NCBI GenBank assembly: GCA_016209605.1
Contig: JACQVS010000106.1
Location: 6,916 to 70,915 of the forward strand
Origin: Planctomycetota bacterium
GTDB lineage: Bacteria; Planctomycetota; UBA8108; JACQVS01
DNA: 64,000 nucleotides
Direction: 5' to 3'
Shown: piece after piece, positions 8,690 through 56,838 of the stretch
How the letters are laid out: the number at the start of each line of letters is the position of its first letter
Numbering within the stretch: position 1 is the first letter of the stretch
Notes under the pieces: generated by a model
Databases searched by the model: none
What the model saw: only the letters and a program-made list of their open reading frames with translations
What the model was told of the DNA's origin: nothing
Translations under genes and position numbers: made by a program

Positions 8690-8903
8690 GACACTTGAAA
8701 ATCCATCTCCACCTTTGAAAACAACGGGATCGACCCCCGGGCTAGATATTGCCAGCGCAGGGACTCCCCCTCAACCGTGTTGGGGTGAGTCTTCATGAGA
8801 AGTTTAAAACAGGATTCCCCCCCGATCAAATCGGCCGCTCGTTCCGCTTCATGAAGAACGCATTACGAGAATCTGAAATTTTACCGGCATTTTCAAGATA
8901 AGA

Positions 8904-39300: not shown

Positions 39301-39437
39301 GGATCCTCTCCTGTCACATTCCGTAACCCTTTTCTCTTAATCCAAAACCACTTATACCTTTTACTTGCTTATTTTACAGTTTACACCTTTTCTGGACTTT
39401 TGAGGAGGTAAAATCCGGCAAAAAGCCGGAGCTCACA

Positions 39438-41141: not shown

Positions 41142-41236
41142 GGGCGATTTCTCTTGAGCGGTTTAAGTTTCACAAGCAACTTCGAGTTGACGGAAACGCG
41201 GGCCATCTTCCTGCGGAACGCTGGCCAGATAAAAGT

Positions 41237-42925: not shown

Positions 42926-43187
42926 GGGGATCTCCTCAACTCAAATCCCATGAGAAGATGGCTCGAAATATTCAGAGAGGGAGTCCGCCCGCCGGCAAAC
43001 CTCTCTCGCAGTCACTTGCTCCAAAGATTACGGCGAACACGAATGGCGAAAATTTCATGCCGAGATCGAGCTCGCTAAGTGAATAACATCTTTTTTCTGC
43101 TACTTATCGAGGTGCAGGGAGGCCTCGGTAAACGGTCGGCCATAACAAGTAGTATACCGCCGCCACCCCCGCGGTCAATAGTTCAAA

Positions 43188-44063: not shown

Positions 44064-45848
44064 TTAGCTCACCCGCTTGATGGCCACCATGGTCAGGTCG
44101 TCGTGGAACTTGCTCCCATCGACGTACTGGATGACCTCTTGATGGATGGCTGTGAGCAGATGCTCCGGCGACAAGCTGGCGTGCTGCTTGAAGGTTTCCC
44201 GCAAGCGCTCCTTGCCGAAGCGCTGCTTGGAAGCGTTGCTGCCTTCCCAAACCCCATCGGTGGTCAGGAGGAGGACATCCCCCACCCCCAAGGGTCCGGC
44301 CTTGAGCAGGTCATAGCCCGCCTCCGGAAAAAGCCCCAATGGGAAGCCGGTCGAGTCCAGATCGGTGATGATCTGCCGGTCTGCAGAATAGACGAGCGGG
44401 GTGTCGTGGCCGGCGTTGACGAACTCGAGGCAGTGGTCTTCCAGGCTCAAGCGGCTGAGAAAGAAGGTCATGAACTTGTCTTCATCCAGGTCGCTTTCCA
44501 GGAGGGTGTTGAGGCTGGCCACAATGTCCCCGACATCCTTCTTCACCGAGCAGAGGGCGCGGAGATTGGCGCGGCCGGTGGCCATGAGCAGAGCGGCTCC
44601 AATGCCGTGTCCGGAAACGTCGCCGATGGTGATGAACAATTCCTTGGGATTAGGCAGGATGAAGTCGAAATAATCGCCGCCCGTCTCCTCGCAGCTGGAG
44701 TTGATCCAGGCGATCTGATATCCCGGAACCCGAGGCGGCTCCTTGGGATACATCCCCTTTTGAATGCTCTGGGCGATCTTCAAACTGGCCGAAATGCGCT
44801 CGCGGTCCAGGGCCACCTTGTACAGGATGGCGTTTTCGATGGCGGTAGCCGCCAGACCGGACATGGTGAGGATGGAGTCCTGGTCGGTTTTGGTGAATCG
44901 CCCATCGTTGTTGGCCGAGTTGATGAGGAAGACCGCCCCCAGCAATTTCCCCTTGGAAACCAGGGGGATGCACATGCACGATTGGACGTGAATTCCATCG
45001 GCAGGCTGAAACTGATCCGGATCCTGATAGTTGGAAATGAGCTGCGGCTCCCCCCTCGCGATGGTGCGCTCGAGGATGGAATCGCCGTTCACGAAGCGGA
45101 GCTTGAGGGCGTTCTCGAGATTCAATCCCCACTCCACCCTTGAGACCAGGCGGTCCTCCTCTTTGAGGATGACGGACCCCACCTGGGCCGAGGAAATGAA
45201 CAGAGAAATCTCCATCAGCCTGGCGAGCAGCACCTCCAGTTCCAGGCTGCCTATCAACCCTCCAATGCAGTTGATGGCTTCGAGCTTGGCAAGGCTGTGG
45301 TCCAGCTGAGTCTGAATGGACTCCCGGTCATACAGCCGGAAAAGAGCCACCGCCACATGATCGAAGATGAACGCCTCCAGCTCCTGGCGATCGGCCTCCA
45401 GGCCGGTGAAGGGCGAATGAAAGGCGATCCACCCGAATTTCTTGCCCGCCACCTCGATGAGCTTGGCCCAGGAAATAGGGATCATCCGGTCGCCCAGCTG
45501 CAGCTGGGCCTCCGGCCTCGCCCGCCCGACCGGACCACCGCCGGCATGCTGAAAGGCCTCCTTAAAATTCAGGATCTGGGCCGGCTGTTCGCAATCCCCC
45601 CCTCGAGGCAAGCCGGAAAAATTCGAAAATTCGAGCTGCATAGGGCCTTGACCATCGCCTTTCTGCCCATCGAAAGCGGCCTGCCCATCGAAAGCGGCCT
45701 GCCCATCGAAGGCGATGAAAGAGAAGAGAACTTCCCCGAAAGCCTCCTGAAACAGCTCTTCCAGATGGGAGAAGAAGTCGAACTTGGAGAACGCCCCAAA
45801 AAGATAGACGATCTTGCTCAGAAGCCGCGCCGTTTTCGTTTCAGTCAT
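44064..45848 (-). CDS. GAF-domain-containing PP2C-type serine phosphatase (SpoIIE/RsbU family)
   Basis: 594 aa; N-terminal GAF-like sensor domain(s). C-terminal PP2C motifs (GGDYFDF, GDVSGHG, TDGVWE). Contains an in-frame 3x tandem (AFDGQA) repeat. Confidence 0.8.
   Translation of the reverse strand: MTETKTARLLSKIVYLFGAFSKFDFFSHLEELFQEAFGEVLFSFIAFDGQAAFDGQAAFDGQKGDGQGPMQLEFSNFSGLPRGGDCEQPAQILNFKEAFQHAGGGPVGRARPEAQLQLGDRMIPISWAKLIEVAGKKFGWIAFHSPFTGLEADRQELEAFIFDHVAVALFRLYDRESIQTQLDHSLAKLEAINCIGGLIGSLELEVLLARLMEISLFISSAQVGSVILKEEDRLVSRVEWGLNLENALKLRFVNGDSILERTIARGEPQLISNYQDPDQFQPADGIHVQSCMCIPLVSKGKLLGAVFLINSANNDGRFTKTDQDSILTMSGLAATAIENAILYKVALDRERISASLKIAQSIQKGMYPKEPPRVPGYQIAWINSSCEETGGDYFDFILPNPKELFITIGDVSGHGIGAALLMATGRANLRALCSVKKDVGDIVASLNTLLESDLDEDKFMTFFLSRLSLEDHCLEFVNAGHDTPLVYSADRQIITDLDSTGFPLGLFPEAGYDLLKAGPLGVGDVLLLTTDGVWEGSNASKQRFGKERLRETFKQHASLSPEHLLTAIHQEVIQYVDGSKFHDDLTMVAIKRVS
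45663..45716. repeat. In-frame 18-nt tandem repeat x3 (ctgcccatcgaaagcggc) inside the GAF-PP2C gene
   Basis: Read directly; encodes AFDGQA AFDGQA AFDGQK on the minus strand. Confidence 0.8.
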
Positions 45849-46031
45849 TCATTCCTCTCTGACCAGGGCGGATCATCCAATCCTGGGAATTCATTTCAAG
45901 TGTGACACACCGGAGGATTTTGTGCAAAAAAACCGTAAAGATATTCCCTCTCCGTTACCGGAATTTGCTCGATCTCTCTCGCTTCCCTATACTTCAAAGG
46001 GAATATCTACCATTCCAAAAATAGTACTGCA

Positions 46032-47315
46032 GTGACAACAAAACCGCTCAATCCAGAAATATCCTCGACGGAAGCTGGTGATGATCAAATTCGCACCACG
46101 GTCTTCGAATACGACAGCTTCACCATCAAGAAGTCGATGCATCGCAACATCACCATCCTGGAGGCTGCCGGGAGCTTCACTCCCCAGCTTGGAAAAGAGC
46201 TGGAGCGCCAGGCCGGCCAGGTCCGCAATAACCTCGGGCTGGATCTTTCCGGGGTTATCGGCATCCAGCCGACCATTCTTTCCAGCTTGCAGTACATCCA
46301 CAAAAAAATCACTTCGCGCAGCAAATGCTTCCTGCTCTGCAATCCTCCTGACAAGCTGCTGGACATCTTGAAACTCAGCAACTTGACCGGCCAGTTCCAG
46401 ATCACCAACGGCCTCAGGGATTTCGATGCGATACCAGCTTCTTCTCCGGCGCCGCCGCAGGAGGTTCCGGTGGTAAAACCAGTCGCGGAGCAGGGGATCA
46501 AAGGCTTCGAACCGGTCCAGAAAGAAATCACCCAGTTGACTCAGACGCTCAAACGGACCGAAAAACTGGAAAAGGGATTGGACTCCGCCTGCAAATGCGT
46601 GCGCAAGATTCTTCCGGCCCAGCCGCCCAAGGTCTCTGGTTACGAGTTCGCCTTCTTCTTCTCCCCCTGCGACAAGGTCGGCGGCGATTTCTTCGATTTC
46701 ACCTTTGGCGATGACAATTTTCTGGATATTGCCATTGGAGATGTCTCCGGCCACGGCCTGGATTCGGCCATCATCATGGCCATGGCCAAGAAGGTCCTTC
46801 GCCTCCGCGCCAAGGATTTTCCCAGCCGCAACAGCAAGGAAATTCTCTGCCAGGTTAACAGGGATCTTTATGAAGACCTGGGCCAGCGCATTTTCATCAC
46901 GGTTTTGTTCGTGCGTATGAACCTCCGTTCCGGCCTCGTGCATTTCGCTCGCGCCGGACATGAGCCACCCATCCGATTTCAGCCGGGCGCCAAGGAGGCT
47001 CCAGTTTTTTGCAACTCGACGGGAATCGCCATCGGCATGGATTCCGGACCGCGTTTCACTCCGATTCTTGAGGAAAGGAGCATCCAGCTCTTGCCTGGGG
47101 AAGGGCTTCTTCTGTACACCGATGGGATCGTTGAAAGCTTGAACTCGAGGCGTGACCTGTTCTCCCGCCAGCGCCTGGCGTACACCCTGGAACACCTGCA
47201 GGAGCCGGTCACCGCCCAGTCCGTCATCGAAACCATCGGCGCGGCGGTTGATCAGTTCTCGCAAGGATTCCCCCAGGAAGATGACATGACTGCTATTGCA
47301 ATTCTGAGGAAATGA
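46032..47315 (+). CDS. STAS-domain (anti-sigma-antagonist-like) fused to a PP2C-type serine phosphatase
   Basis: 427 aa; N-terminal STAS fold signature (…ITILEAAGSF…LDLSGVIGIQPTILSSL…FLLCNPPDKLLDILKLSNL). C-terminal PP2C motifs (GGDFFDF, GDVSGHG, TDGIVE). Divergent from the GAF-PP2C gene. Confidence 0.8.
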   Translation: MTTKPLNPEISSTEAGDDQIRTTVFEYDSFTIKKSMHRNITILEAAGSFTPQLGKELERQAGQVRNNLGLDLSGVIGIQPTILSSLQYIHKKITSRSKCFLLCNPPDKLLDILKLSNLTGQFQITNGLRDFDAIPASSPAPPQEVPVVKPVAEQGIKGFEPVQKEITQLTQTLKRTEKLEKGLDSACKCVRKILPAQPPKVSGYEFAFFFSPCDKVGGDFFDFTFGDDNFLDIAIGDVSGHGLDSAIIMAMAKKVLRLRAKDFPSRNSKEILCQVNRDLYEDLGQRIFITVLFVRMNLRSGLVHFARAGHEPPIRFQPGAKEAPVFCNSTGIAIGMDSGPRFTPILEERSIQLLPGEGLLLYTDGIVESLNSRRDLFSRQRLAYTLEHLQEPVTAQSVIETIGAAVDQFSQGFPQEDDMTAIAILRK

Positions 47316-47319
47316 TTCT

Positions 47320-50300
47320 GTGGCATTCAAAGGTGATGTTGGCCAACTTTCACTGCTGAACATTTATCAGGCGTTGAACCTGAACCGGCAGTCGGGGATT
47401 CTGGTCATCAGTTCCGGTAAGGTGAAGAGGAAAGTCCGTTTCCTGCCCAACGGTATCCGCCTGCTCACGAACTATCCTGGCGATTATAAAGGCCTCAAGC
47501 AAATCCTGGCCAAGCTCAAGATCCTCACCGAGTCGCAATTCCAGAACGTCATCTCGACGAAAAACGACGATAAGATGCCGCTGGGCGATTTTCTGTTCCA
47601 CCGGAGGATCATCGACCAGGATCTGATCGAGGGGCCGATCAGCAAGCACATTCTGGAGCTGATTTATGAAACCTTCTCCTGGAAGTCGGCAAAGTACGAA
47701 TTTCACGCCGGCGGAGATACGGATGACCTCGAACTGTTCAGTCTGGATGGTCCTGGAAAATCCCTGACCTTCAAAGTTCCAAACGTCCTCATGGAGGTGG
47801 CGCGGCGCGAGGATGAGTGGAACCGCATCCTGGCTGAAATTCCCAGTGAAAAAGAAATCTTCGTTCCGGTCAATCGCGGCGAATTTCTCAAACGCAAGGA
47901 ATACGACGCCGAAGCCCCAACGGAGTCGATCCTCGAAATCAAGCAATTGATTGACGGGGAGAGGTCGATCGAGTCGATCTGCCAGGAGACGACTCTTTCA
48001 AACTACGAGACCTACATCGTTCTCAAGTTGCTCATGGCGGAGGGCGAAATCCGCGCCTTCACCATCGAAGAGAAGAAAGAGCTCGCTGAAAAGCTCCGCA
48101 AGAAAGGGAAGCTCCGGGAGCTGATCGACGTCTACAATTATCTTCTCACCCTGGAACCCGATGATCTGCAGACGCGGCTGAGCCTGGTGAGCCTATTAGA
48201 AAAGAAGAAAGACTTCTGCTCCTTCCTGGTCGAGCACTACCAGTATCTGGCCGAGCATTCCATCGCCAGCGGCGAGTTGAGTCAGGCCAAAAATTATCTC
48301 GCGCGCATGCTGGAAATCGAACCCACCTCCCCCGCAGCCCAGGAGTGGCTGTTTGAGGTGCACTGCAACCTCGGGGAGAACCGAGAAGCCCTGGAAGCAG
48401 GAAGGCAAATCGTCGAATCTGCCAAGCAAGCCAAGGAGTATTCGCGCGGAACCTCGATCCTGGAAAGGATGATCAAGGTCTTCCCCGAGGATCCTTCCCT
48501 CTACCATGAAGCCGCCGACTTGTATCAGCTCAACGGCAACACGGCGGAGGCGGTTCGCTGCCTGAAGGCGGCCGCCTCCATTTACGAAAGCAGAAGGGAT
48601 CTCACTCGCCTTCGCAAAACCTACGAGAGGATCGCCGGCCTGGACTCATCCGAGGGCTCCACCCTGCGGAAAATCCTGGACCTGGAAAAGAAGAAGAACA
48701 AGCGGGGATTGAACACCTTTTCAGTGGCCTTCGCCGGTCTGGCCGCCGCTCTGATCGCGTTCACGGTCTACTGGATCACCATGGAAGTCTTCTGCCGCCG
48801 TGCCTTTGCGGCAGTGGACCGGGATGTCCAGACCCTCGCTGAAAACGGCCGTTTCAAAGACGCCCAGATGATCTTGAACTCCCTGGTCCGGGATTTCCCT
48901 TTGAGCGCCAAGCGCTGGGAAATCTCCAATCGCTTGAACTCCATTGCCACCGACCAGTGGAAAATGGTTTCCAAGATCCGCCAGGATGCCGAAAAAGAAA
49001 ACCTGCTCTTCGGCTCCTTCCTGGCGCAGGTCGAGAAGCTGCGCCGCGAGCGGAAATATGTGGAGGCTCTCAACCAGATTCAAGGGATCCGCCGGGTGGG
49101 CCTGTCCCCTGCCAACCTCAACATCCTGAAGAAAATCGAAACGGAAATCATCGCCATCTTCAACGAAGCGCAAGCGACCTTGAAAAAAGCCCAGGCGCTG
49201 ACCCAAAGCGGCAAGCTTCAGGAAGCACACCCCCTCTACATCCAGCTGCTCATGGAGTATTCGAGCACCCCGGTCGCGCAAAATTTGAAAATTCCCATGC
49301 AGCTGAAGACGGTCCCCGCCGGCGCGGAAGTGTTCGTCAACGAACAGATGGTTGGCAAGTCGCCATTGACTTTTTATTACCATCCCTTTGAAAAGTTCCG
49401 CCTGAAAATCGTCAAGGAGGGATTCCAGGAATTCCTTTGCGGAGATCCCGCCACGGAGCAACCATGCTTCGATTTCACCAAGGACTGGACCCTGTCGGCT
49501 TACCTGAAGCGCCTGCCGGCGTGGACGGTCAGCGCGCTCGATCCCTTGGGGGGCGCATACCTCTTCGATGGGAAGAACTTGTACTACTCCACTCAGAACG
49601 GCAAGGTCCTTGGTCATAGAATCGATTCGCGGGAAACCGCCTGGACCTATACCACCCCCAAGAACCTGCCGATCAAAAGCGAGCTGCGGCTCTGGAAGAA
49701 CTTGATTTATTTTGGAGCCATGGATGGCTTGTTCATTGCCATCGACAAGGACAGCGGCCAAAGCCGCCTGGAGCTGGTCCCCTTGAAGAACAGCCATCCC
49801 TACCGGCTGGTTCCCTCTCCGGCTTCCGAAAACGGCACCGTGGCGGTGGTCGCCAAGCCTTATGTCCTGGGCTTGAATTTGCAATCCGGGACCCTGGTGT
49901 GGACCTATCCCTGTGATAATCTGGTGGAAGCCCCGCCGCAGCCCTTGAAAGGCTCCATCGTGTGCGTCACCACGGCAGGGGAGATCCTGTTCCTGGACGA
50001 GGGCCTTGGCAGTCTCAAACAGGCGATCGACCTCAAAACTGCACTTACTTCGGCGGGAGTCGAGTACGGCGGCGCTTATTTCATCACGGACAGTCAAGGG
50101 ACCATATACCGGATCCAGCTGTCCACTGCAGAAATACAATGGAGCTTCCGGTCCGAAATCACCGGTCTCTCGCCTCCAAGCGTGAAGAACGATCAGGTCA
50201 TTGTCAGCTCGAGCCACGGCAATATCCTGGCTCTCGACATCAACAAGGGAAGTCGCAAGTGGGACGTCAAGGTGCAAGACAGTTTCCCCGCTCCCGGCAT

Positions 50301-50487
50301 CATTGCCAACAACCAGTACTATATCGGCTCTCAAAAAGGCGTATTGTTCTGTTTTGACATGCAAACTGGGCATTATTACTGGACCTTCCAGGCGGATGGG
50401 CCCTTTATCGCTCCACCCAGGCTCGAATCGGGGCTGGTCATCATCGGAAGCGAGAAAAATACGTTATACTCCTTTAGGGAGAAGTAA
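47320..50487 (+). CDS. Large multidomain protein: N-terminal DUF4388 (PATAN) domain, TPR repeats, one TM helix, PEGA domain, C-terminal PQQ/BamB-like beta-propeller repeats
   Basis: 1055 aa. N-terminus GDVGQLSLLNIYQALNLNRQSGILVI is characteristic of DUF4388. There is a TM helix at about residue 470 (FSVAFAGLAAALIAFTVYWI). PEGA-like VPAGAEVFVNEQMVGKSP…KIVKEGF. The C-terminal repeats have spaced W/G/Y patterns typical of PQQ propellers. Confidence 0.7.
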   Translation: MAFKGDVGQLSLLNIYQALNLNRQSGILVISSGKVKRKVRFLPNGIRLLTNYPGDYKGLKQILAKLKILTESQFQNVISTKNDDKMPLGDFLFHRRIIDQDLIEGPISKHILELIYETFSWKSAKYEFHAGGDTDDLELFSLDGPGKSLTFKVPNVLMEVARREDEWNRILAEIPSEKEIFVPVNRGEFLKRKEYDAEAPTESILEIKQLIDGERSIESICQETTLSNYETYIVLKLLMAEGEIRAFTIEEKKELAEKLRKKGKLRELIDVYNYLLTLEPDDLQTRLSLVSLLEKKKDFCSFLVEHYQYLAEHSIASGELSQAKNYLARMLEIEPTSPAAQEWLFEVHCNLGENREALEAGRQIVESAKQAKEYSRGTSILERMIKVFPEDPSLYHEAADLYQLNGNTAEAVRCLKAAASIYESRRDLTRLRKTYERIAGLDSSEGSTLRKILDLEKKKNKRGLNTFSVAFAGLAAALIAFTVYWITMEVFCRRAFAAVDRDVQTLAENGRFKDAQMILNSLVRDFPLSAKRWEISNRLNSIATDQWKMVSKIRQDAEKENLLFGSFLAQVEKLRRERKYVEALNQIQGIRRVGLSPANLNILKKIETEIIAIFNEAQATLKKAQALTQSGKLQEAHPLYIQLLMEYSSTPVAQNLKIPMQLKTVPAGAEVFVNEQMVGKSPLTFYYHPFEKFRLKIVKEGFQEFLCGDPATEQPCFDFTKDWTLSAYLKRLPAWTVSALDPLGGAYLFDGKNLYYSTQNGKVLGHRIDSRETAWTYTTPKNLPIKSELRLWKNLIYFGAMDGLFIAIDKDSGQSRLELVPLKNSHPYRLVPSPASENGTVAVVAKPYVLGLNLQSGTLVWTYPCDNLVEAPPQPLKGSIVCVTTAGEILFLDEGLGSLKQAIDLKTALTSAGVEYGGAYFITDSQGTIYRIQLSTAEIQWSFRSEITGLSPPSVKNDQVIVSSSHGNILALDINKGSRKWDVKVQDSFPAPGIIANNQYYIGSQKGVLFCFDMQTGHYYWTFQADGPFIAPPRLESGLVIIGSEKNTLYSFREK

Positions 50488-50490
50488 CCC

Positions 50491-51585
50491 GTGAGCTTAA
50501 TCATTTTCAATCCATTCAAGTTTTTCAAAGCGCGGCAGCTCAAAAAAGCACTCGCCGACTACGAAAAAAATCCTGGTCTGGAAGAAACCGTCAGCGTGGT
50601 TCAGCTTTTCCTCAAGTGCGGGCGATGCACCGAAGCATTCCAGCACGCCGAGGCCGGGCGGCAGAAATTTCCAGCTTCCAGCGAGCTGAACATTCTGCGC
50701 CAGCTGGCCTACAATAAACTGGGAGCTTTGGAGTGCAGGGCGCTGGCAAAGCAGATCGCCGCCCACCCCCGCCCTGAGACCATCGCCAAGGCTGTCGAGA
50801 TCTGGCGCTCGTGCGAGAACTACCGCCAATGTGAGCGACTGAGGCATAAATGGAGAGATCGTTTTCCCGACAGCTGGATTCTCCAGTTTGCCATTGGAAA
50901 ATACCTTTTCCATCGCTCCCTGGACAAAAAGATCAAAGATCAAAGCTCTGAAATAAAAGTCCAGTGCCTGGAGCAGCTGAAGAGAGCCGCAGCTCTCAAT
51001 CCAGACAACTATAAATCTTTGCTTTATCTGGCCACCATCCTTTCGGGCACGGGATCGGTCTCGGATGCTCTGAAAACTCTGGATCGTTTGCTGAAGCTGT
51101 ATCCTGGCGACCAGAGGGCGGTGGCGCTGCGAGAGCGGATCCAGCGGTCCCAAAGAGGCCGCCAGGCGCCCCCGGGGCCCTTTGCCGCCGAGGCCTTCAA
51201 GGCGCCGCGGGAGGCCAAAGCAGGCCAGGAAGGCTCTGACGACATCTTCAACGACTTGCGGGAATCACCTTCCATTTTCGCCGCCGTGATTGAAGAAGGC
51301 CCAAAGGACAATCTTCAGGCGCAATGTTATTTCGCCGAAAACAGCTGTTTCAACTTCGAACAAGGGGAGGCGGCCTTCCGAGACCTCATGCACGCCCTGC
51401 GAGCGGCTTCCAAGCGCATGGGCCTCGGGGAGCTGAAGACCTGCATCCTGGAAGGCGGATCCTGGCGGATCTTTCTGGGCAACCACCCTGTCAAATCACT
51501 GTTGATTTGCACCGACAAGAATTTTCAGGAGACCAGATTTGAAACGGCGATCCGCCGGATCATTCAAGAGAAGGTCCTGGCGTGA
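50491..51585 (+). CDS. TPR-repeat protein with a probable C-terminal Roadblock/LC7-like domain
   Basis: 364 aa; helical TPR-like N-terminal two thirds. The C-terminal ~100 aa have a Roadblock-like strand/helix pattern (…TCILEGGSWRIFLG…SLLICTDKN…). Moderate confidence. Confidence 0.5.
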   Translation: MSLIIFNPFKFFKARQLKKALADYEKNPGLEETVSVVQLFLKCGRCTEAFQHAEAGRQKFPASSELNILRQLAYNKLGALECRALAKQIAAHPRPETIAKAVEIWRSCENYRQCERLRHKWRDRFPDSWILQFAIGKYLFHRSLDKKIKDQSSEIKVQCLEQLKRAAALNPDNYKSLLYLATILSGTGSVSDALKTLDRLLKLYPGDQRAVALRERIQRSQRGRQAPPGPFAAEAFKAPREAKAGQEGSDDIFNDLRESPSIFAAVIEEGPKDNLQAQCYFAENSCFNFEQGEAAFRDLMHALRAASKRMGLGELKTCILEGGSWRIFLGNHPVKSLLICTDKNFQETRFETAIRRIIQEKVLA

Positions 51586-51610
51586 GGATTTTTGAAACTG
51601 GGAGCTTCAG

Positions 51611-51961
51611 ATGAAGAATATTCTGAAGGATTTGAATCAAGAAGCCGGCATCAAGGGGAGCATGGTGATAACGCCGGATGGCATCATGGTCGCCTCCGCC
51701 CTCGGAGCGAATTTCGAGGAGGATGTGGTCGCCGCCATTGTCTCTTCATTGCTCGTGGCCGTGAGGAGAACACTCGCTCGTATCAAGGCTCCCGATGGAC
51801 TCAATTCCTGCATCTTGTATGCCAATAACGGCAAGATCATGTTTTATGACATGGGCAAAGCCTTTCTGGTGGTCGTTGCCGATATGAATCTGAAGATGGA
51901 CAGCAGCATCATCGCCATCAAGAGCGCGATCTATCGCATCCAGAACCGGCGGGTCGCATGA
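51611..51961 (+). CDS. Roadblock/LC7-domain protein (MglB-like paralog)
   Basis: 116 aa; GIKGSMVITPDGIMVAS…FLVVVADMNL pattern typical of Roadblock/LC7. Confidence 0.8.
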   Translation: MKNILKDLNQEAGIKGSMVITPDGIMVASALGANFEEDVVAAIVSSLLVAVRRTLARIKAPDGLNSCILYANNGKIMFYDMGKAFLVVVADMNLKMDSSIIAIKSAIYRIQNRRVA

Positions 51962-52098
51962 AAGCAGGTGGAGGGGGGCTACCTAGGAGGAAGGCAGAAG
52001 GATCGAGGTCTAAAAATTCCGAAAACATTCAACGATTCGACGATTTGAAATCCAGCATGCTATCATCCACTGAGTAGTCATCCTGTTGGAGAAGAGGA

Positions 52099-53115
52099 AT
52101 GGTCCAAATCAATTTCGCTCTAAAAGAAGTCAATTGCAAAATCGTCTTCTATGGCCCCGGCCTTAGTGGCAAAACCACCAACTTGGAGGTCATTCACAGC
52201 AAAGCTCCCAAGTCCAATGTGGGAGAACTCACCTCCATTGCAACGGAAGGAGACCGGACTCTTTTCTTCGACTTTCTCCCTTTGAACCTTGGGCAGGTTG
52301 CAGGGATGACCACCAAATTCCAGATCTACACGGTCCCCGGCCAGGTCTACTACAACTCCACCAGAAAACTGGTGCTCCAGGGGGCTGACGGAATCGTTTT
52401 CGTCGCCGACTCGCGGCGGGGCAAGATTGAAGAAAACCTCGAGTCCTTCAAGAATCTTGAAGATAACATGAAGGAGTACGGGATGGATCTTCACACCATC
52501 CCCCTGGTTTTCCAGTACAACAAGCGGGATCTCCAGGACATTTACACCATTGAAGAGCTGGAAAAGGCTCTCAACCACTTTGGAGCGCCTTACTTCGAAG
52601 CCGTCGCCGTCAACGGCGATGGAGTCTTCCCGACGTTGAAAAAAGTCTCCAGCATGGTCCTGGAGAACCTGAACAAGCAGCAGAGCCCGACCAAGGTCAA
52701 GGCCAAAAAGCCTCAAGCCGCCAAGGAGCCGGAGCTGGTTCCGGCCGGCAATGTTTCGAAAGAAGAGGCTGCCGCAGCCGCTTCAGGACCGGTTCGGGGC
52801 CCCGCGCCTCGCGGCGCTCCGGTCAGACCGCAAGCGGCGGCGCCAGTCCGGCATCAAAGTCCGGGCGCCGTCGTGGTCAAGGAAAAGGTCACCAGCGCGC
52901 CCGGCGTCAAGCCGATAGAGCGGAAAGTTCCGGCCGGCGGCTCCGTGGTCAAGCGTAGGCCGATGGCCGAGCCCGTGGCGGCGCCAGCGATATCGGCTGC
53001 CGCCAAGGGAGGTTCCGGTGGAGGCAAGCCGATCTTCTGGATCGTCATTCTGGTGGTCCTCGCAGGCGCTGCAGCGGCCATTTTCTTCAGTGGAATTTGG
53101 GAAAAATTCATTTAG
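52099..53115 (+). CDS. mglA: MglA-family Ras-like GTPase with a ~140-aa C-terminal extension ending in a transmembrane helix
   Basis: The first ~195 aa are closely similar to Myxococcus MglA (INCKIVFYGPGLSGKTTNL, DRTLFFDFLPL, YTVPGQVYY, QYNKRDL). A Pro/Ala/Lys-rich linker follows, then IFWIVILVVLAGAAAAIFFSGIW at the extreme C-terminus. Confidence 0.9.
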   Translation: MVQINFALKEVNCKIVFYGPGLSGKTTNLEVIHSKAPKSNVGELTSIATEGDRTLFFDFLPLNLGQVAGMTTKFQIYTVPGQVYYNSTRKLVLQGADGIVFVADSRRGKIEENLESFKNLEDNMKEYGMDLHTIPLVFQYNKRDLQDIYTIEELEKALNHFGAPYFEAVAVNGDGVFPTLKKVSSMVLENLNKQQSPTKVKAKKPQAAKEPELVPAGNVSKEEAAAAASGPVRGPAPRGAPVRPQAAAPVRHQSPGAVVVKEKVTSAPGVKPIERKVPAGGSVVKRRPMAEPVAAPAISAAAKGGSGGGKPIFWIVILVVLAGAAAAIFFSGIWEKFI

Positions 53116-53227
53116 GAGTTCAAACCCCTGAGCCAATTCGGTGCCATCGGGTTCTGGCCGTTCGGCTGGATGAGACGGAAGGAGGTCAGCCATTATAACC
53201 GACAGTGATAAAATCCGTGAAAGCCGT

Positions 53228-53701
53228 TTGGTTTTCTACAAGGATGATATTGACAAGATCAATACCGTCCTCAAGGAGTTCTTGAGCCTTTCCGATTCAA
53301 AATGCAACATGCTGATTGACAAGGAAGGCCATATGGTGACCAAGGCCGGGCACACGGAGGACTTCGACATGCAAGCGGTGGCCGCCCTGGTCGCCGGCAG
53401 CTACGCGGCAACGAGGGAAATGGCCCGCCTGCTCGGAGAAGAGGAGTTTTCCGTGCTCTTCCATCAAGGCAAGAAGGACAACATCCAGTTGACCTTGATC
53501 GGAGACCGGACCATTCTCGCGACCGTCTTCGATGAACGGACCACCATCGGCATGGTCCGCCTCTATGCCAAAGAAGCCTCGGAAAAGCTCACCAAGATTT
53601 TCGCGGAAATCGGAACCCGCCGCGTCGATGGGGAAAACCTCCTCGGCTCGGAATTTTCGGAGTCCGCCCGGAATCAGCTGGACAGTTTCTTCGCCGAGTG
53701 A
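53228..53701 (+). CDS. mglB: MglB-like Roadblock/LC7 GTPase-activating protein
   Basis: 157 aa; closely parallels Myxococcus MglB (…EEFSVLFHQGKKDNIQLTLIGDRTILATVFDERTTIGMVRLYAKEASEKLTKIF…). Confidence 0.85.
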   Translation: MVFYKDDIDKINTVLKEFLSLSDSKCNMLIDKEGHMVTKAGHTEDFDMQAVAALVAGSYAATREMARLLGEEEFSVLFHQGKKDNIQLTLIGDRTILATVFDERTTIGMVRLYAKEASEKLTKIFAEIGTRRVDGENLLGSEFSESARNQLDSFFAE

Positions 53702-53765
53702 AATCGCCAAGATCTGAAGGGATCAAGGAATTATTACCCTTGCTCCCTTCCGTGCTTGCGGAGCC

Positions 53766-54371
53766 CTACTCCCCTTCCTTGGGCCTGTCGGTGTTCTCCC
53801 GAATGTCCAGGAGGAGCTGAACCAGGTCATTTTGCTGGTCTCCGACATCCGAGAGCAGGAACGCCAGCTCCCCCAGAAACTTGAATCCCAGATAAAGCGC
53901 TGCCCCCAAGATCGCCCAGCCGATCAAGCACAGCATCATCACGGCAATGCTTTCGATCGCCCCCTCGATTTTCAAGTAAACCGTGATCCCCATGCCCCCC
54001 AGCACCAGGAAAGCTTGCAGGTAGGCGAAAAAAAGGAGCAGCTCGGACAGCGCGCGCAATCTCAAAAAGCGGGATGGGGCATTGGGGTTGAAGTATCGGA
54101 CGGCGCTTTGTCCCGTGCCAAAAGTTTCGTAATAGGGCCGGGCCGAGCGCCGCCGGCGCCGGCTCATCTTTTCAATCAGCGCCAGCCGCTTCCAATCCTC
54201 CTCGAGACCCGCTTGCCTCGAGGCTTGCAGCTCTTCCAGCTGCTGGATCTCTTCCTGGGTCCGGAGAACGGTCTTGGCGCCGCAGCGCGGGCATTCGATC
54301 TTCTTGCCGAGGGATTCCTCGGGCGCTGAAAACTTGCTTTTGCAGTTCGGGCAGATGCTTTTTATGGCCAT
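53766..54371 (-). CDS. Membrane protein with an N-terminal MJ0042-type zinc ribbon
   Basis: 201 aa; CPNC…CPRC ribbon followed by three predicted TM helices. Confidence 0.55.
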   Translation of the reverse strand: MAIKSICPNCKSKFSAPEESLGKKIECPRCGAKTVLRTQEEIQQLEELQASRQAGLEEDWKRLALIEKMSRRRRRSARPYYETFGTGQSAVRYFNPNAPSRFLRLRALSELLLFFAYLQAFLVLGGMGITVYLKIEGAIESIAVMMLCLIGWAILGAALYLGFKFLGELAFLLSDVGDQQNDLVQLLLDIRENTDRPKEGE

Positions 54372-54435: not shown

Positions 54436-56838
54436 TTACTGGTTCGTGGCCGCTTCCTTTTCCTTCGCCTCCTCGGCGGGCTTGGCCTCTTCTTTCTTCT
54501 CCTCTTTCAGCTCTGCCTTTTCAGCGGCCGGCGCTTCCACGGCCGGCGGGGCGGTTTCAAAGAGAAGCTGGATTTGATCGGCCATGGAGCCCTGCGCGGC
54601 GGAATAGGCGAAATAGCTGGCCTGGCGCAGCTTGAGGTTGGTATCGTTCATTCCATCGAGGATGATCTTCAAGAGGGAGGCATCGGCGCCGGCCGGAGCT
54701 CCATCCAGGATTTTACCGACCGCCCACATCGCCGCCTCGCGGACTTCCGGAGAGTTTTCCTTGGATTCGAACACCTTGGCTATGGAGCCAACCATACCTT
54801 GAGCCTGCCCCCGGAGATTCCCCAGCGCTCCCAAGCAGGGGATGCGGATGGAGTCCGGACGGTTGACCAGCACCGGCTCCAGGGCTCCGGCCACCTTGTC
54901 GAGGGTGAACCGGGTGGACCCGGCCGTCAGCCGCTCCAGGCTCCTGGCCGCGAGGCTGGCCAGGGCGATATCCTTCGCTCTGGCCGCATCCTCTTTCTCG
55001 AAGAGGGGCGCGAGGACGGTTTCCTTGAAATTCACGGCATCGACATCTTCGGGGATGACCAGCACCTTGTTCTCCTCGCTTTGGTAACGCTCTGATTCCT
55101 TCTGCAGATGGGCGGGATCCACCACCACCACGATCGGAACGGAGGCGGTCCGCTGGTTGCGCCGGAGCTGGCTCACCAGGAAATTGATGGGGGCGGCCTG
55201 TCGTTGAGCGGATGAGGAGGCGCCGAGAGCGGTGTCGACCACGATCAGGTCGGGCGGAATTTGCGAGGCGCGGACGATCCCCATTTCCGCGTTGGGCGAA
55301 TTGGAGAGCGACTCCAGGTTCAGCTCCTGGAACAGGCCGTCAAAGCGGCGGACGTGCTCGGGATTGCCCATCATCTTGTGCACCGTCCGGATGCCGCTGT
55401 TGACGATGGCTTCGGCCAGAGCGTTGACCACGGCCTCTCCTGTTTTTCCGGCGGCTTCATCGGCATTCCAATCGGCCAGGACCATGGCGGCATGAACCCG
55501 CACGGTCTTGGAGTTGCTCTCCCGGAGGGCCGCTAGCAGCGCTGCGGGCATAGCCCCGCGCCGCTGCGTTTGCCCGGCGACTTCCAGCAGCTTCTCGGCG
55601 ACCTCGTTCATGCGGTCATCCAAGGCCTGGCCGATCGCCCCGAAAAGGAAATCTTTGGGCGCGGCCAGGAGCCGCGGCTGGCGGAGGTAATCCATCGTGG
55701 CCTTCTGGGCATTGAGGGCGGACTTGACATCCTTCTGGCCGCTTTCCGGCGCCCCTTCCTTGGAGTAGAATTCCAGCCCCATTTGATATTCCACGAGCTG
55801 CAGGGCGTCATTGCACAGGGCCATCTCGCGGGCCGCCCGGAAGCCCGGATCCAGCTTGAGGGCCTGAACCAGCATCTGCTCCGCCATGCGCTCGTTGACC
55901 TGAAAGTCCGCCACCGCCTCCTCCACCACCTGATTGTCCTTCAAGTGATAGATGGTCGGCTGGTAGTACGGCTTGTTGAAGTCGTTCTTGTGAGGATTGA
56001 GATACAAGAAGCGGGCGATGTCGAGGTAGTAGAGCTTGGCATCCTTCAAGACGACTTCCGAAGTCTGGCCGCGGCCCAGAATCGCGATCAGGGACTCCTT
56101 GGCCACCGCTTTGACGCCGGCATCCTTGTCGGTCTGATAAAGCAGGGCCAGAGGGGCGACCGAAAATTCGTGCCGCATCGGCTTGGCCCCCAGAAGCCGG
56201 GCGACCGAGTTCCGCACCAGTGGCTCCGGATGGCCGGCGGCGGCGGCCAGCACCGGAACGGCATCGACGCCGATGTAGTGGGCGATCCACAATTCCGCGC
56301 GGGTGCGCGTCTCGATTTCCGAGTCCCCCAGCTTGGCAATGAGCTGCGGCACCAGATTGCGCCCGAACTCGGTGGCATGCTGGATCATCAGACGGAGCTG
56401 ATCCTGCGGCGAGGCGGCGAAAGTCTCATCGATCGCCGCCTTGATCTTCTCGGGATCATGGATGCGGCCCTTGATCCCGGTGCGCCGGGCATCGAGCAGT
56501 TTCAGCCCGGCTCCGGAAATGCGCGGATCCTTGTCCCGCACCAGGCGCAGGATTTCCGCCGCCATCACCTGGTCCATGGCGGTGGCAATAGCTTCTCCGG
56601 TGGGATCCAGGGCGAACACCTTTTCCAGAAGGGCCAGGGCCTCGGCGGCATTGCCTTCCTTGTACTTGGTGATCCCCTCATTGAGCAGGGCGGGAATGTC
56701 GGCCTCCCCCTCCGCTTGAGAGCGCTTACCGGAGAGCCAGGAGAGAGCGGTCAACACGACCAGAACAACTGCAAAAGTTGCACTCCAGGTTGAAAATTTT
56801 CGCAATGATTTACCGGCCATTTTTACTTGCTCCATCAC
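54436..56838 (-). CDS. HEAT/Armadillo-repeat protein with an N-terminal membrane anchor and an internal receiver-like (probably pseudo-receiver) domain
   Basis: 800 aa; N-terminal TM (ATFAVVLVVLTALSWL), repeated helical HEAT-like units (PEPLVRNSVARLLG, SPEVREAAMWAVGKIL). A central LIVVDTALG…VPIVVVVD segment resembles a CheY-like fold. C-terminal K/E-rich tail. Confidence 0.6.
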   Translation of the reverse strand: MMEQVKMAGKSLRKFSTWSATFAVVLVVLTALSWLSGKRSQAEGEADIPALLNEGITKYKEGNAAEALALLEKVFALDPTGEAIATAMDQVMAAEILRLVRDKDPRISGAGLKLLDARRTGIKGRIHDPEKIKAAIDETFAASPQDQLRLMIQHATEFGRNLVPQLIAKLGDSEIETRTRAELWIAHYIGVDAVPVLAAAAGHPEPLVRNSVARLLGAKPMRHEFSVAPLALLYQTDKDAGVKAVAKESLIAILGRGQTSEVVLKDAKLYYLDIARFLYLNPHKNDFNKPYYQPTIYHLKDNQVVEEAVADFQVNERMAEQMLVQALKLDPGFRAAREMALCNDALQLVEYQMGLEFYSKEGAPESGQKDVKSALNAQKATMDYLRQPRLLAAPKDFLFGAIGQALDDRMNEVAEKLLEVAGQTQRRGAMPAALLAALRESNSKTVRVHAAMVLADWNADEAAGKTGEAVVNALAEAIVNSGIRTVHKMMGNPEHVRRFDGLFQELNLESLSNSPNAEMGIVRASQIPPDLIVVDTALGASSSAQRQAAPINFLVSQLRRNQRTASVPIVVVVDPAHLQKESERYQSEENKVLVIPEDVDAVNFKETVLAPLFEKEDAARAKDIALASLAARSLERLTAGSTRFTLDKVAGALEPVLVNRPDSIRIPCLGALGNLRGQAQGMVGSIAKVFESKENSPEVREAAMWAVGKILDGAPAGADASLLKIILDGMNDTNLKLRQASYFAYSAAQGSMADQIQLLFETAPPAVEAPAAEKAELKEEKKEEAKPAEEAKEKEAATNQ

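What the first reader, a model, noticed from the sequence alone, without database searches (positions are those of the whole stretch)
47320..50487. 1055-aa PATAN(DUF4388)-TPR-TM-PEGA-beta-propeller protein heading the MglA cluster
The domain order implies a cytoplasmic PATAN domain (proposed partner of Roadblock/MglA-type modules) plus TPR scaffold, a single membrane pass, then periplasmic PEGA and PQQ-like propeller domains. That architecture is suited to coupling an extracytoplasmic cue to the MglA switch. It starts 4 nt after the STAS-PP2C gene stop, suggesting operonic linkage with the phosphatase.
Basis: partly seen in the sequence, partly recalled or inferred. Interest (0 to 1): 0.6.

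Follow-up and report, generated by a model that had tools for sequence, protein, structure and literature searches.

The report
Membrane-spanning PATAN–propeller partner of tethered MglA
This is a real 1055-residue membrane-spanning protein of uncultured Planctomycetota, with a PATAN–TPR platform inside the cell and a PEGA domain plus eight-bladed propeller outside, that is almost always encoded beside a Ras-like MglA GTPase carrying its own membrane anchor, so it probably links the cell envelope to that switch.

Summary
ORF 47320-50487(+) encodes 1055 aa. Its parts are PATAN/DUF4388 with a winged-helix-like end (aa 1-248), TPR (249-457), one TM helix (~466-492, N-in), periplasmic helical repeats, PEGA (655-740) and an 8-bladed BamB-like propeller (745-1053). 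Pfam scores exceed the curated cut-offs and the AlphaFold model has pLDDT 86.

The gene lies 4 nt after a STAS?-PP2C gene and 3 nt before a TPR-Roadblock gene. A Roadblock gene, a true MglA orthologue and MglB follow.

The order PP2C, PATAN protein, TPR, Roadblock, MglA, MglB recurs in every full-length relative with enough flanking DNA (about 20 Planctomycetota MAG loci, 22-42% identity). One distant locus has a rearranged order but keeps the linkage.

- This MglA is tail-anchored: a G domain, a ~110-aa Ala/Pro-rich linker and a C-terminal TM helix, seen in 115/115 long homologues.
- The TPR neighbour ends in a Roadblock-like domain.
- One marine lineage keeps the GTPase core but lacks the PP2C-PP2C-PATAN block.

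Best reading: an envelope-spanning adaptor or receptor that positions or tunes the membrane-tethered MglA switch. Whether signal flows outside-in or inside-out is unresolved. The PATAN-MglA/MglB neighbourhood has been published since 2006 and 2014; I found no description of this architecture or of the tethered MglA.

The parts
47320..48063 (+). Cytoplasmic PATAN (DUF4388/PatA_N) module, aa 1-248. It has a beta core with a helical insertion (helices aa 57-118) and a C-terminal winged-helix-like subdomain (aa ~200-246).
   Evidence: Pfam PF14332 scores 53.6 bits against a cut-off of 25. The domain-only AF2 model has pLDDT 91.9 and pTM 0.86. It is the most conserved part of the protein (42% mean pairwise identity). 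The profile of aa 1-248 matches as one unit in the best-scoring library proteins.
48064..48690 (+). Cytoplasmic TPR solenoid, aa 249-457.
   Evidence: TPR_14, TPR_19 and TPR_9 score above their cut-offs. Helices 249-457 are modelled at pLDDT ~85-93. There is a weak, sub-threshold resemblance to the SgmX N-terminal TPRs (NF052243, E 1.9e-4).
48715..48795 (+). Single transmembrane helix (aa ~466-492), preceded by the basic patch KKKNKR.
   Evidence: It is the only hydrophobic 19-mer with Kyte-Doolittle score above 1.4. It is conserved in 15/15 members with a positive-inside bias. AF2 models a helix at aa 471-508.
48844..49281 (+). Periplasmic helical (TPR-like) stalk, aa 509-654.
   Evidence: AF2 models helices at aa 512-654. 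TPR_14 and TPR_19 give weak hits when the region is scanned alone.
49282..49539 (+). Periplasmic PEGA beta-sandwich, aa 655-740.
   Evidence: PF08308 scores 25.9-28.7 bits against a cut-off of 20.8. AF2 models beta strands at aa 658-738.
49552..50478 (+). Periplasmic 8-bladed BamB-like (PQQ_2) beta-propeller, aa 745-1053.
   Evidence: PF13360 scores 93.1 bits. Foldseek matches BamB at E ~1e-19 with TM-score relative to target ~0.8. Conserved Trp residues at 735, 775, 861, 941, 981 and 1021 (five invariant, W941 in at least 90% of members) lie mostly ~40 aa apart.
46032..47315 (+). PP2C (SpoIIE-type) phosphatase with a marginal N-terminal STAS domain. It is the first gene of the co-directional run.
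   Evidence: PF07228 scores 131.5 bits. STAS scores 20.4-22.9 bits against a cut-off of 22.6. A PP2C lies upstream of the PATAN gene in all full-length relatives.
44064..45848 (-). Divergently transcribed GAF-PP2C phosphatase.
   Evidence: SpoIIE scores 159.5 bits and GAF_2 54.2 bits. It is conserved next to the cluster in most loci.
50491..51585 (+). TPR protein (364 aa) whose C-terminal ~100 aa is Roadblock-like. It starts 3 nt after the PATAN gene stop.
   Evidence: TPR_14 and TPR_19 hits. hhalign of its family against the Roadblock family gives probability 92.5% and E 4.7e-7 over aa 251-346. The gap is read from the sequence.
51611..51961 (+). Stand-alone Roadblock/LC7 protein (116 aa).
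   Evidence: PF03259 scores 44.2 bits. PDB Roadblock proteins 7yh1 and 7f8m match at E 7.6e-11 and 1e-9.
52099..53115 (+). Tail-anchored MglA (338 aa). It has a G domain (aa 1-195), an Ala/Pro/Lys-rich linker (~110 aa) and a C-terminal TM helix (aa ~311-334).
   Evidence: phmmer against M. xanthus MglA 5ymx gives E 5.5e-70 over aa 3-193, with the P-loop, Arg53-equivalent and TVPGQ motif aligned. The sequence is shown. The tail is conserved in 5/5 loci and in 115/115 long homologues.
53228..53701 (+). MglB (Roadblock-type GAP) orthologue, including the C-terminal helix region.
   Evidence: The profile matches M. xanthus MglB 6izw_B at E 7.6e-39. NF052242 scores 88.5 bits. Mean column identity across loci is 79%.
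53766..54371 (-). Small membrane protein with an N-terminal CxxC...CxxC zinc ribbon and two hydrophobic helices. It is a conserved convergent neighbour.
   Evidence: Sequence. Zinc-ribbon hits are weak. The 2-TM part is conserved in all 5 loci, but the zinc ribbon occurs only in the window and L002.
54436..56838 (-). HEAT-repeat protein (800 aa), a conserved neighbour. Whether it belongs to the system is uncertain.
   Evidence: HEAT_2 scores 49.5 bits. It is present in most loci, including L036, which lacks the PATAN block.
38062..42925 (-). pilC (T2SSF) and two PilB-type ATPase genes (MshEN+T2SSE), 4.4 kb upstream. The linkage is limited to one clade.
   Evidence: Pfam hits. These genes lie upstream only in the window, L002, L008, L009, L011, L024 and L035.

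Best explanation
The protein is a bitopic inner-membrane adaptor or receptor that couples the cell envelope to a membrane-tethered MglA/MglB polarity switch.

Shown:
- The topology is N-in/C-out. PATAN, a winged-helix-like subdomain and TPR lie in the cytoplasm. A helical stalk, PEGA and a BamB-like 8-bladed propeller lie in the periplasm.
- The gene is translationally packed between a PP2C phosphatase gene and a TPR-Roadblock gene. Roadblock, MglA and MglB genes follow.
- This linkage holds across relatives down to ~22% identity and survives a gene-order rearrangement.
- The MglA of this module is a catalytically intact Group-1-type MglA that carries a flexible ~110-aa linker and a C-terminal TM anchor.

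Inferred:
- The PATAN-TPR platform docks a component of the switch at the membrane, either MglA-GTP or the Roadblock/MglB regulatory complex.
- The PEGA-propeller ectodomain binds an envelope component (peptidoglycan, an outer-membrane protein or a surface structure).
- Together these would set where and when the tethered MglA is active.
- The two sensory PP2C phosphatases (GAF-, STAS-) would tune the platform by dephosphorylation.

I lean towards an outside-in or positional-landmark role, meaning an accessory input module. The PP2C-PP2C-PATAN block is missing as a unit in one lineage that keeps the GTPase core. The same kind of propeller also forms the non-kinase part of a Ser/Thr kinase.
For: - Domains and topology.
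- Gene packing.
- Conserved cluster. Every full-length relative with downstream DNA has Roadblock-MglA-MglB.
- Distant members: L039 keeps PATAN, TPR, Roadblock, MglA. L040 has the order MglA-tail, MglB, multi-TM protein, PATAN protein.
- MglA and MglB orthology.
- MglA tail anchor.
- Block absence in L036, which retains TPR-Roadblock, Roadblock, MglA-TM, MglB, the 2-TM protein and HEAT.
- The cytoplasmic PATAN domain is more conserved (42%) than the periplasmic parts (24-29%).
- A Pkinase+PQQ_2 propeller protein (P0016) matches the propeller at E 2.8e-20.
- Literature: PATAN genes near mglA/mglB (PMC4316618). PATAN is a membrane-localising output domain that binds the PilB1 N-terminal domain and PilC (bioRxiv 10.1101/2021.06.11.447907). 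PATAN proteins were among the candidates considered in the M. xanthus SgmX/T4aP-regulator study that characterised SopA (PMC11580455). GltJ is a precedent for a bitopic MglA-GTP-binding envelope protein (PMC11135422).
Against: - No direct evidence of any protein-protein contact. No complex prediction could be run.
- One distant protein of the same architecture (P0252, L038) has no MglA gene within 10 kb upstream or 3 kb downstream, so the architecture is not exclusively MglA-linked.
- The direction of information flow is not determined by any result.
- No ligand or binding site is identifiable in the propeller.
- No kinase is encoded in the cluster to partner the PP2Cs.
- Some conserved neighbours (LarC, HEAT) show that part of the synteny may be plain vertical inheritance within one phylum.
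Confidence: 0.5

Rival explanations
1. Inside-out effector or scaffold. MglA-GTP (tethered) binds the TPR/PATAN platform. This recruits or activates an envelope-spanning machine through the periplasmic PEGA-propeller. GltJ works this way in Myxococcus focal adhesions. Alternatively the PATAN domain acts on the PilB/PilC type IV pilus motor, as it does in cyanobacterial PatA-type regulators.
For: - TPR proteins (SgmX) are MglA-GTP effectors (papers listed). The TPR region has a weak similarity to SgmX.
- PATAN is the output domain that binds PilB1 and PilC.
- pilB-pilB-pilC lie 4.4 kb upstream here and in six related loci.
- GltJ gives the precedent.
- BamB-type propellers are protein-scaffolding modules.
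Against: - The pil genes are adjacent only in the near clade and absent from the flanks of the distant clades.
- The GTPase core persists without this protein in L036, so it cannot be the sole effector.
- The SgmX resemblance is far below the family cut-off (19.9 bits against 1800).
Confidence: 0.3
2. Regulator of the MglA nucleotide cycle. The PATAN-TPR platform, together with the TPR-Roadblock/Roadblock pair, acts as a membrane-bound co-GAP, GEF or GAP-sequestering factor. Eukaryotic Roadblock/longin complexes on membranes provide the analogy. PP2C-controlled phosphorylation would switch it.
For: - Three Roadblock-type domains are encoded in the operon.
- PP2C genes are adjacent and are lost together with the PATAN gene.
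- Roadblock partners modulate MglB GAP activity in M. xanthus (PMC9481161, seen only as a title and abstract opening in the listing; not read).
Against: - No catalytic motif can be identified in PATAN or TPR.
- The PATAN fold has no significant solved relative. The matches to GATOR1/SEAC subunits have E of 0.3 or more and rmsd above 18 A, so they are not meaningful.
- This reading does not explain the large periplasmic domain.
Confidence: 0.12
3. Functionally unrelated neighbour. On this reading the protein is one of the many Planctomycetota BamB-like propeller envelope proteins, and its position next to mglA reflects inherited synteny only.
For: - All loci come from one phylum.
- Unrelated genes such as larC are also syntenic.
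- One same-architecture homologue is not next to mglA.
Against: - Gaps of 3-4 nt on both sides.
- Linkage is kept at 22-25% identity, where flanking genes differ, and after rearrangement of gene order.
- The PATAN-MglA/MglB association is seen independently in other phyla.
Confidence: 0.08

Closest known systems
PatA-type PATAN-REC response regulators (PatA of Anabaena; PixG, PixE, PilG, LsiR of Synechocystis)
   Same: They share the N-terminal PATAN (DUF4388) module with a helical insertion. In those proteins PATAN is the output domain. It localises to the membrane and binds the N-terminal domains of PilB1 and PilC.
   Different: This protein has no receiver domain. PATAN is instead fused to TPR, a TM helix and a large periplasmic PEGA-propeller. 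Input therefore cannot be phosphotransfer from a CheA-type kinase.
GltJ (AgmX) of Myxococcus xanthus
   Same: It is a bitopic inner-membrane protein. Its cytoplasmic N-terminal region binds MglA-GTP and its periplasmic C-terminal domain connects to an envelope machine. The overall logic is the same.
   Different: It has no homologous domain. [quoted passage not shown] The M. xanthus MglA crystallised is ~200 aa, with no tail anchor.
SgmX (M. xanthus) TPR effector of MglA-GTP
   Same: It is a TPR solenoid in an MglA pathway that controls type IV pili. NCBIfam gives a weak hit of aa 254-471 to the SgmX N-terminus.
   Different: The score of 19.9 bits is far below the 1800-bit cut-off. By my own recollection SgmX is soluble and has no PATAN, TM or propeller.
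BamB (YfgL) lipoprotein of the BAM complex
   Same: It has the same 8-bladed PQQ_2-type propeller fold (Foldseek E ~1e-19, TM-score ~0.8).
   Different: Identity is only 16-18%. TIGR03300 scores 103.7 bits against a cut-off of 285. The propeller here is the C-terminal ectodomain of a 1055-aa bitopic protein, so this is not a BamB orthologue.
Bitopic Ser/Thr kinases with C-terminal PQQ-type propellers (AfsK-like; P0016 in this search)
   Same: The plan is a signalling domain followed by a propeller of the same Pfam family. I did not examine P0016 for a TM segment.
   Different: The cytoplasmic module here is PATAN-TPR, not a kinase. Phospho-signalling is implied only by the neighbouring PP2C genes.

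Membership tests
PATAN / DUF4388 (Pfam PF14332, PatA_N) | Profile match above the Pfam gathering score | tested here: met
   53.6 bits against a cut-off of 25, aa 4-168 covering profile positions 1-122 of 122.
PATAN / DUF4388 (Pfam PF14332, PatA_N) | Alpha-helical insertion inside the alpha/beta core (Makarova et al. 2006, title cited) | tested here: met
   The AF2 model has four helices (aa 57-118) inserted between strand 4 (aa 45-49) and strand 5 (aa 125-130), at pLDDT ~88-95.
PatA-type response regulator | C-terminal CheY-like receiver domain after PATAN | tested here: not met
   No Response_reg hit appears in Pfam or NCBIfam at E up to 1. The sequence after PATAN is TPR, a TM helix, PEGA and the propeller.
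PEGA domain (PF08308) | Profile match above the gathering score, with a beta-sandwich structure | tested here: met
   25.9 bits in the whole protein and 28.7 bits for the region alone, against a cut-off of 20.8. Strands are modelled at aa 658-738.
PQQ_2 / BamB-like beta-propeller (PF13360) | Profile match above the gathering score and an 8-bladed propeller fold | tested here: met
   93.1 bits against a cut-off of 27.6. Foldseek matches BamB with TM-score relative to target ~0.8 and designed 8-bladed propellers with TM-score 0.86-0.88.
BamB orthologue (TIGR03300 / NF008351) | Equivalog score above the cut-off; stand-alone lipoprotein of ~390 aa | tested here: not met
   103.7 bits against 285.2, and 75 bits against 423. 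The propeller is the C-terminal domain of a 1055-aa bitopic protein with no N-terminal lipoprotein signal.
PQQ-dependent dehydrogenase (PF01011, TIGR03075) | Full-length quinoprotein profile match | tested here: not met
   PF01011 scores 17.7 bits against 26.7. TIGR03075 scores 25.9 bits against 480.
SgmX-type MglA effector (NF052243) | Equivalog-domain score above the cut-off | tested here: not met
   19.9 bits against a cut-off of 1800.
MglA effector or partner (functional class) | Direct, nucleotide-dependent binding to MglA | not testable with these tools
   Only genomic linkage is available.
Group 1 MglA (for the neighbouring GTPase 52099-53115) | G domain orthologous to M. xanthus / T. 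thermophilus MglA, with an intrinsic Arg finger, Thr in place of Asp in G3 (TxxGQ) and an adjacent MglB | tested here: met
   E 5.5e-70 to 5ymx over aa 3-193. 'GDRTLFFDF' and 'YTVPGQ' align to the M. xanthus motifs. MglB lies downstream, with E 7.6e-39 to 6izw_B. The departure is an extra ~145-aa tail with a TM helix.
STAS domain (for the upstream PP2C 46032-47315) | Pfam PF01740 score above the gathering score | tested here: inconclusive
   20.4 bits in the whole protein and 22.9 bits for the N-terminal 138 aa alone, against a cut-off of 22.6. In L005 and L006 the upstream PP2C is only 247-252 aa, with SpoIIE as its only listed Pfam hit.

The most novel reading that the evidence does not exclude
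Planctomycetota run a eukaryote-style 'receptor plus membrane-anchored small GTPase' circuit. A bitopic receptor has an extracytoplasmic beta-propeller and an Ig-like (PEGA) ectodomain. It directly controls a Ras-like GTPase (MglA) held on the same membrane by a hypervariable linker and a C-terminal anchor. Roadblock-domain regulators and Ser/Thr phosphatases are built into the operon. Functionally this would parallel plexin- or integrin-type control of prenylated Ras/Rap/Rho GTPases. It would be the first bacterial MglA system shown to operate in two dimensions on the membrane rather than by cytoplasmic pole-to-pole exchange.
Probability: 0.25. Interest if true: 0.8.

Novelty: new variant of a known kind. 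Interest (0 to 1): 0.55.

Why it matters
MglA/MglB is the model for Ras-like polarity control in bacteria, but what PATAN-domain neighbours do there has been an open question since 2006. This locus offers a clean, conserved and compact system in which a PATAN domain is hard-wired to a transmembrane ectodomain and to a membrane-tethered MglA. That makes two questions directly testable. Does PATAN (or its TPR) bind MglA, MglB or Roadblock proteins? Can an MglA switch work as a membrane-confined module? It also gives a candidate polarity or envelope-signalling system for Planctomycetota, a phylum whose cell polarity, budding and surface structures are poorly understood at the molecular level.

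Tried and rejected
- Foldseek of the PATAN-only model against PDB found nothing significant. The best E was 0.16. The GATOR1/SEAC hits have rmsd of 18-20 A, so I did not use them. Only the winged-helix resemblance of aa ~200-246 (probability 0.97, TM-score relative to target 0.54) is noted.
- A profile of the PATAN module against PDB sequences gave only chance-level hits. One was MshE-N at E 0.93, which I did not rely on.
- hhalign of the 116-aa Roadblock family against the MglB family gave only 8.6% probability. I therefore do not call the small Roadblock an MglB paralogue or MglC-like. Its best solved relatives are generic Roadblock/LC7 proteins.
- The sigma-70 promoter and intrinsic-terminator scan was uninformative. 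Terminator-like sites were at the shuffled expectation, so the operon structure rests on gene spacing only.
- Literature searches for DUF4388+Roadblock, and for PEGA+propeller+TPR+transmembrane, found nothing. Tail-anchored+small GTPase+bacteria+Ras-like+prokaryotic returned only one unrelated paper. Searches for MglA or MglB with Planctomycetes returned no paper on this system.
- I considered that the protein is BamB or a quinoprotein dehydrogenase and rejected both on curated cut-offs.
- I considered that the pilB/pilC neighbours prove a pilus role. I downgraded this because the adjacency is confined to the near clade.
- No other PATAN-domain ORF exists in the window.


Full report
**1. The observation**

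The window contains an intact ORF at 47320-50487 on the + strand. It starts with GTG and encodes 1055 aa.
- The preceding PP2C gene ends with TGA at 47313-47315. Four bases separate it from the GTG, and a GAGGAAA motif sits 8 nt upstream.
- The next gene starts with GTG at 50491, 3 nt after the TAA stop.
- The N-terminus 'MAFKGD' aligns with the Met-initiated N-termini of homologues, so the start is right.

Pfam gives the following:
- DUF4388/PatA_N at aa 4-168: 53.6 bits (cut-off 25).
- TPR_14, TPR_19 and TPR_9 between aa 307 and 433, all above cut-off.
- PEGA at aa 663-705: 25.9 bits (cut-off 20.8), rising to 28.7 bits when the region is scanned alone.
- PQQ_2, the BamB family: 93.1 bits (cut-off 27.6).

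The topology evidence is as follows.
- There is exactly one hydrophobic segment, aa ~466-492, preceded by KKKNKR.
- In an alignment of 15 full-length family members, every member has one such segment at the same place.
- The N-terminal flank is rich in Lys/Arg (3-8 residues) and the C-terminal flank is neutral to acidic. The positive-inside rule therefore puts the N-terminus in the cytoplasm.

An AlphaFold2 model built on that alignment is confident (mean pLDDT 86.4). It resolves these parts:
- A PATAN module with a four-helix insertion and a small winged-helix-like end (aa 1-246).
- A TPR solenoid (aa 249-457).
- A disordered basic linker.
- A long helix (aa 471-508).
- Further helical repeats (aa 512-654).
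- A beta-sandwich (aa 658-738).
- A propeller (aa 748-1053).

Foldseek places the propeller with BamB (E ~1e-19, TM-score relative to target ~0.8). It also matches designed eight-bladed propellers.

**2. What surrounds it**

On the same strand, in order:
- PP2C phosphatase with a marginal STAS domain (46032-47315).
- The PATAN protein.
- A 364-aa TPR protein (50491-51585).
- A 116-aa Roadblock protein (51611-51961).
- A 338-aa GTPase (52099-53115).
- A 157-aa Roadblock protein (53228-53701).

The GTPase is a genuine MglA. Residues 3-193 align to M. xanthus MglA at E 5.5e-70. The P-loop, the intrinsic arginine and the TVPGQ G3 motif are all in place. The last gene is MglB, with E 7.6e-39 to M. 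xanthus MglB, including the C-terminal helix region.

The TPR protein ends in a Roadblock-like domain (hhalign probability 92.5%, E 4.7e-7 against the small Roadblock family). The operon therefore encodes three Roadblock-type domains.

Other neighbours:
- Divergently upstream lies a GAF-PP2C.
- Further upstream lie signal peptidase I, two PilB-type ATPases with MshEN domains, and PilC.
- Convergently downstream lie a small zinc-ribbon/2-TM protein and an 800-aa HEAT protein.

**3. An unexpected feature of the neighbour**

After the G domain, this MglA continues with ~110 residues rich in Ala, Pro and Lys. It ends in a hydrophobic helix (PIFWIVILVVLAGAAAAIFFSGIW) followed by four residues.
- The same plan (G domain, 84-142-aa low-complexity linker, basic patch, TM helix, short tail) is present in the MglA of four homologous loci.
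- It is present in all 115 homologues of 308-364 aa among the best 120 database hits. Of these, 112 meet a strict criterion and 3 are borderline.
- The M. xanthus MglA chains in the PDB are 195-203 aa and have no such tail. I found no mention of a membrane-anchored MglA in the 2014 survey of prokaryotic small GTPases or in full-text searches.

The switch encoded here is thus probably confined to the membrane. That changes how its partner should be read. The PATAN protein is a membrane protein acting on a membrane-tethered GTPase.

**4. Related sequences**

The exact protein is deposited as 'PQQ-binding-like beta-propeller repeat protein' from a Planctomycetes MAG. The word-indexed search found 14 further full-length relatives (42-22% identity, 1017-1080 aa).

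A scan of one genome per GTDB species found 27 loci. Twenty-five are titled as Planctomycetota (Planctomycetes, Planctomycetia or Phycisphaerales) MAGs. One is a 5-kb fragment binned as Proteobacteria, and one is titled only 'uncultured bacterium'. That scan used one peptide pattern, so absence from cultured species is not shown.

An exhaustive HMM search with the 250-aa PATAN module found 234 cluster representatives at E of 1e-30 or lower. Most of the best 150 are 990-1190 aa with the module at residues 1-248. The sequences I read have the same plan of PATAN, TPR, basic patch, TM, helices, 'LPL..S.PPGA.V' PEGA-like motif and propeller. The family is therefore sizeable but unnamed.

**5. Is the gene linkage meaningful?**

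- Called genes around relatives at 38%, 25%, 24% and 22% identity show the same order: GAF-PP2C (divergent), PP2C, PATAN protein, TPR, Roadblock, MglA, MglB.
- A tblastn table over all fetched loci shows Roadblock-MglA-MglB downstream, and a PP2C upstream, in every locus with a full-length relative and enough DNA.
- Starting instead from tail-anchored MglA proteins, two of three contexts contain the whole cluster.
- The third is a marine lineage seen on many contigs. It keeps TPR-Roadblock, Roadblock, MglA-TM, MglB, the 2-TM protein, HEAT and LarC, but lacks exactly the GAF-PP2C, PP2C and PATAN block.
- Among three distant representatives of the architecture, one keeps PATAN, TPR, Roadblock, MglA without a PP2C.
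- A second has a different order, MglA tail, MglB, multi-TM protein, PATAN protein.
- The third has no MglA gene within reach.

Linkage that survives rearrangement and ~20% identity argues for function rather than inherited synteny. The exception shows that the architecture is not used only with MglA. The pilB-pilB-pilC genes are adjacent only in the clade nearest to the window, so I treat a pilus connection as a lead only.

**6. How it most likely works**

Shown: the topology, the domain identities, the operon packing, the conserved linkage, and an intact MglA/MglB pair with a tethered MglA.

From the literature:
- PATAN genes have been noted near mglA/mglB (Makarova 2006, as cited in PMC4316618).
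- In Synechocystis the PATAN domain is the output part of PatA-type regulators. It goes to the membrane and binds the N-terminal domains of PilB1 and PilC (bioRxiv 10.1101/2021.06.11.447907).
- PATAN proteins MXAN_3211 and MXAN_4965 were among the candidate proteins weighed in the M. xanthus study of SgmX-linked T4aP regulators that went on to characterise SopA (PMC11580455).
- TPR proteins such as SgmX are MglA-GTP effectors (titles and abstracts).
- GltJ is a bitopic protein whose cytoplasmic domains bind MglA-GTP while its periplasmic domain joins an envelope machine (PMC11135422).

Inferred: the PATAN-TPR platform docks MglA-GTP or the Roadblock/MglB regulators at the membrane. The PEGA-propeller ectodomain holds on to an envelope component. 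The protein thereby fixes where or when the tethered MglA is active, and the two PP2C phosphatases tune it.

I lean towards an input or landmark role for three reasons.
- The block is lost together with two sensory phosphatases while the GTPase core persists.
- The cytoplasmic PATAN domain is the most conserved part (42% against 24-29% for the periplasmic parts).
- The same propeller type occurs in a protein that also carries a Ser/Thr kinase domain (P0016).

None of this fixes the direction. An inside-out effector role like that of GltJ is a serious rival.

**7. Comparison with known families**

The protein is a member of the PATAN, TPR, PEGA and PQQ_2 domain families by their curated thresholds. 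It is not any of the following:
- A PatA-type response regulator, because it has no receiver domain.
- A BamB orthologue (103.7 bits against 285, and a different architecture).
- A quinoprotein dehydrogenase.
- An SgmX orthologue.

It may work like GltJ or like receptor-type proteins with propeller ectodomains, but it shares no domain with GltJ. The PATAN module has no significant solved structural relative.

**8. Novelty and verdict**

The general association of PATAN with MglA/MglB has been published, and every domain is known. This makes it a new variant of a known kind rather than a new category. Three things are new as far as I could search:
- The bitopic PATAN-TPR-TM-PEGA-propeller architecture.
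- Its near-obligate pairing with a tail-anchored MglA in Planctomycetota.
- The modular PP2C-PP2C-PATAN block.

Interest is moderate to good (0.55). A specialist would not be astonished by a PATAN gene next to mglA. A membrane-tethered MglA with a receptor-like partner is unusual, though, and it makes the long-open question of what PATAN domains do in MglA systems directly testable.

Noticed in passing
window 52099-53115 (+): The MglA orthologue is tail-anchored. It has a G domain, a ~110-aa Ala/Pro/Lys-rich linker and a C-terminal TM helix. The tail is conserved in 115/115 long homologues (308-364 aa), and the labelled ones are all from Planctomycetota. I found no description of it in the searched literature.
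   Followed up: yes
window 50491-51585 (+), aa ~251-346: The 364-aa TPR protein ends in a Roadblock-like domain that Pfam misses (hhalign probability 92.5%). The operon therefore encodes three Roadblock-type domains: TPR-Roadblock, the 116-aa Roadblock and MglB. This suggests a heteromeric regulator.
   Followed up: partly
L036 (TARA marine contig) compared with window 44064-50487: One abundant marine lineage lacks exactly the GAF-PP2C, PP2C and PATAN-propeller block between the M24 peptidase gene and the TPR-Roadblock gene. It keeps the rest of the MglA module.
   Followed up: partly
window 53766-54371 (-): This is a 201-aa protein with an N-terminal CxxC...CxxC zinc ribbon and two hydrophobic helices, convergent with mglB. 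The 2-TM part is conserved in all loci compared, but the zinc ribbon only in the nearest relatives. GltJ uses a zinc-ribbon domain to bind MglA-GTP, so this may be another membrane partner.
   Followed up: partly
window 38062-42925 (-): A pilC (T2SSF) gene and two PilB-type ATPase genes with MshEN N-domains lie 4.4 kb upstream of the PATAN gene. PATAN binds the PilB N-terminal domain in cyanobacteria. The adjacency holds only in the near clade (window plus 6 loci).
   Followed up: partly
window 46001-54000: GC content of the MglA cluster is 54-57%. It is 58-69% in most of the rest of the window; one other 2-kb bin (8001-10000) is also low, at 56%. The cause (composition of these genes or a different history) was not examined.
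   Followed up: no
P0139-P0141, P0171, P0184: Some library proteins of 960-1490 aa consist of three to six tandem PATAN+winged-helix units with no TM helix or propeller. This is a separate, apparently soluble multi-PATAN architecture.
   Followed up: no
L038 (P0252) and window 54436-56838 (-): A HEAT-repeat protein neighbours the PATAN-propeller gene both in the MglA clusters and in a distant locus that lacks MglA. The recurrence might be meaningful or might only reflect how common HEAT proteins are in this phylum.
   Followed up: no
window 41258-43078 (+) and other long antisense ORFs: Long ORFs without any Pfam hit overlap real genes on the opposite strand; for example a 606-aa ORF lies opposite the PilB gene. 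I take these to be spurious.
   Followed up: partly
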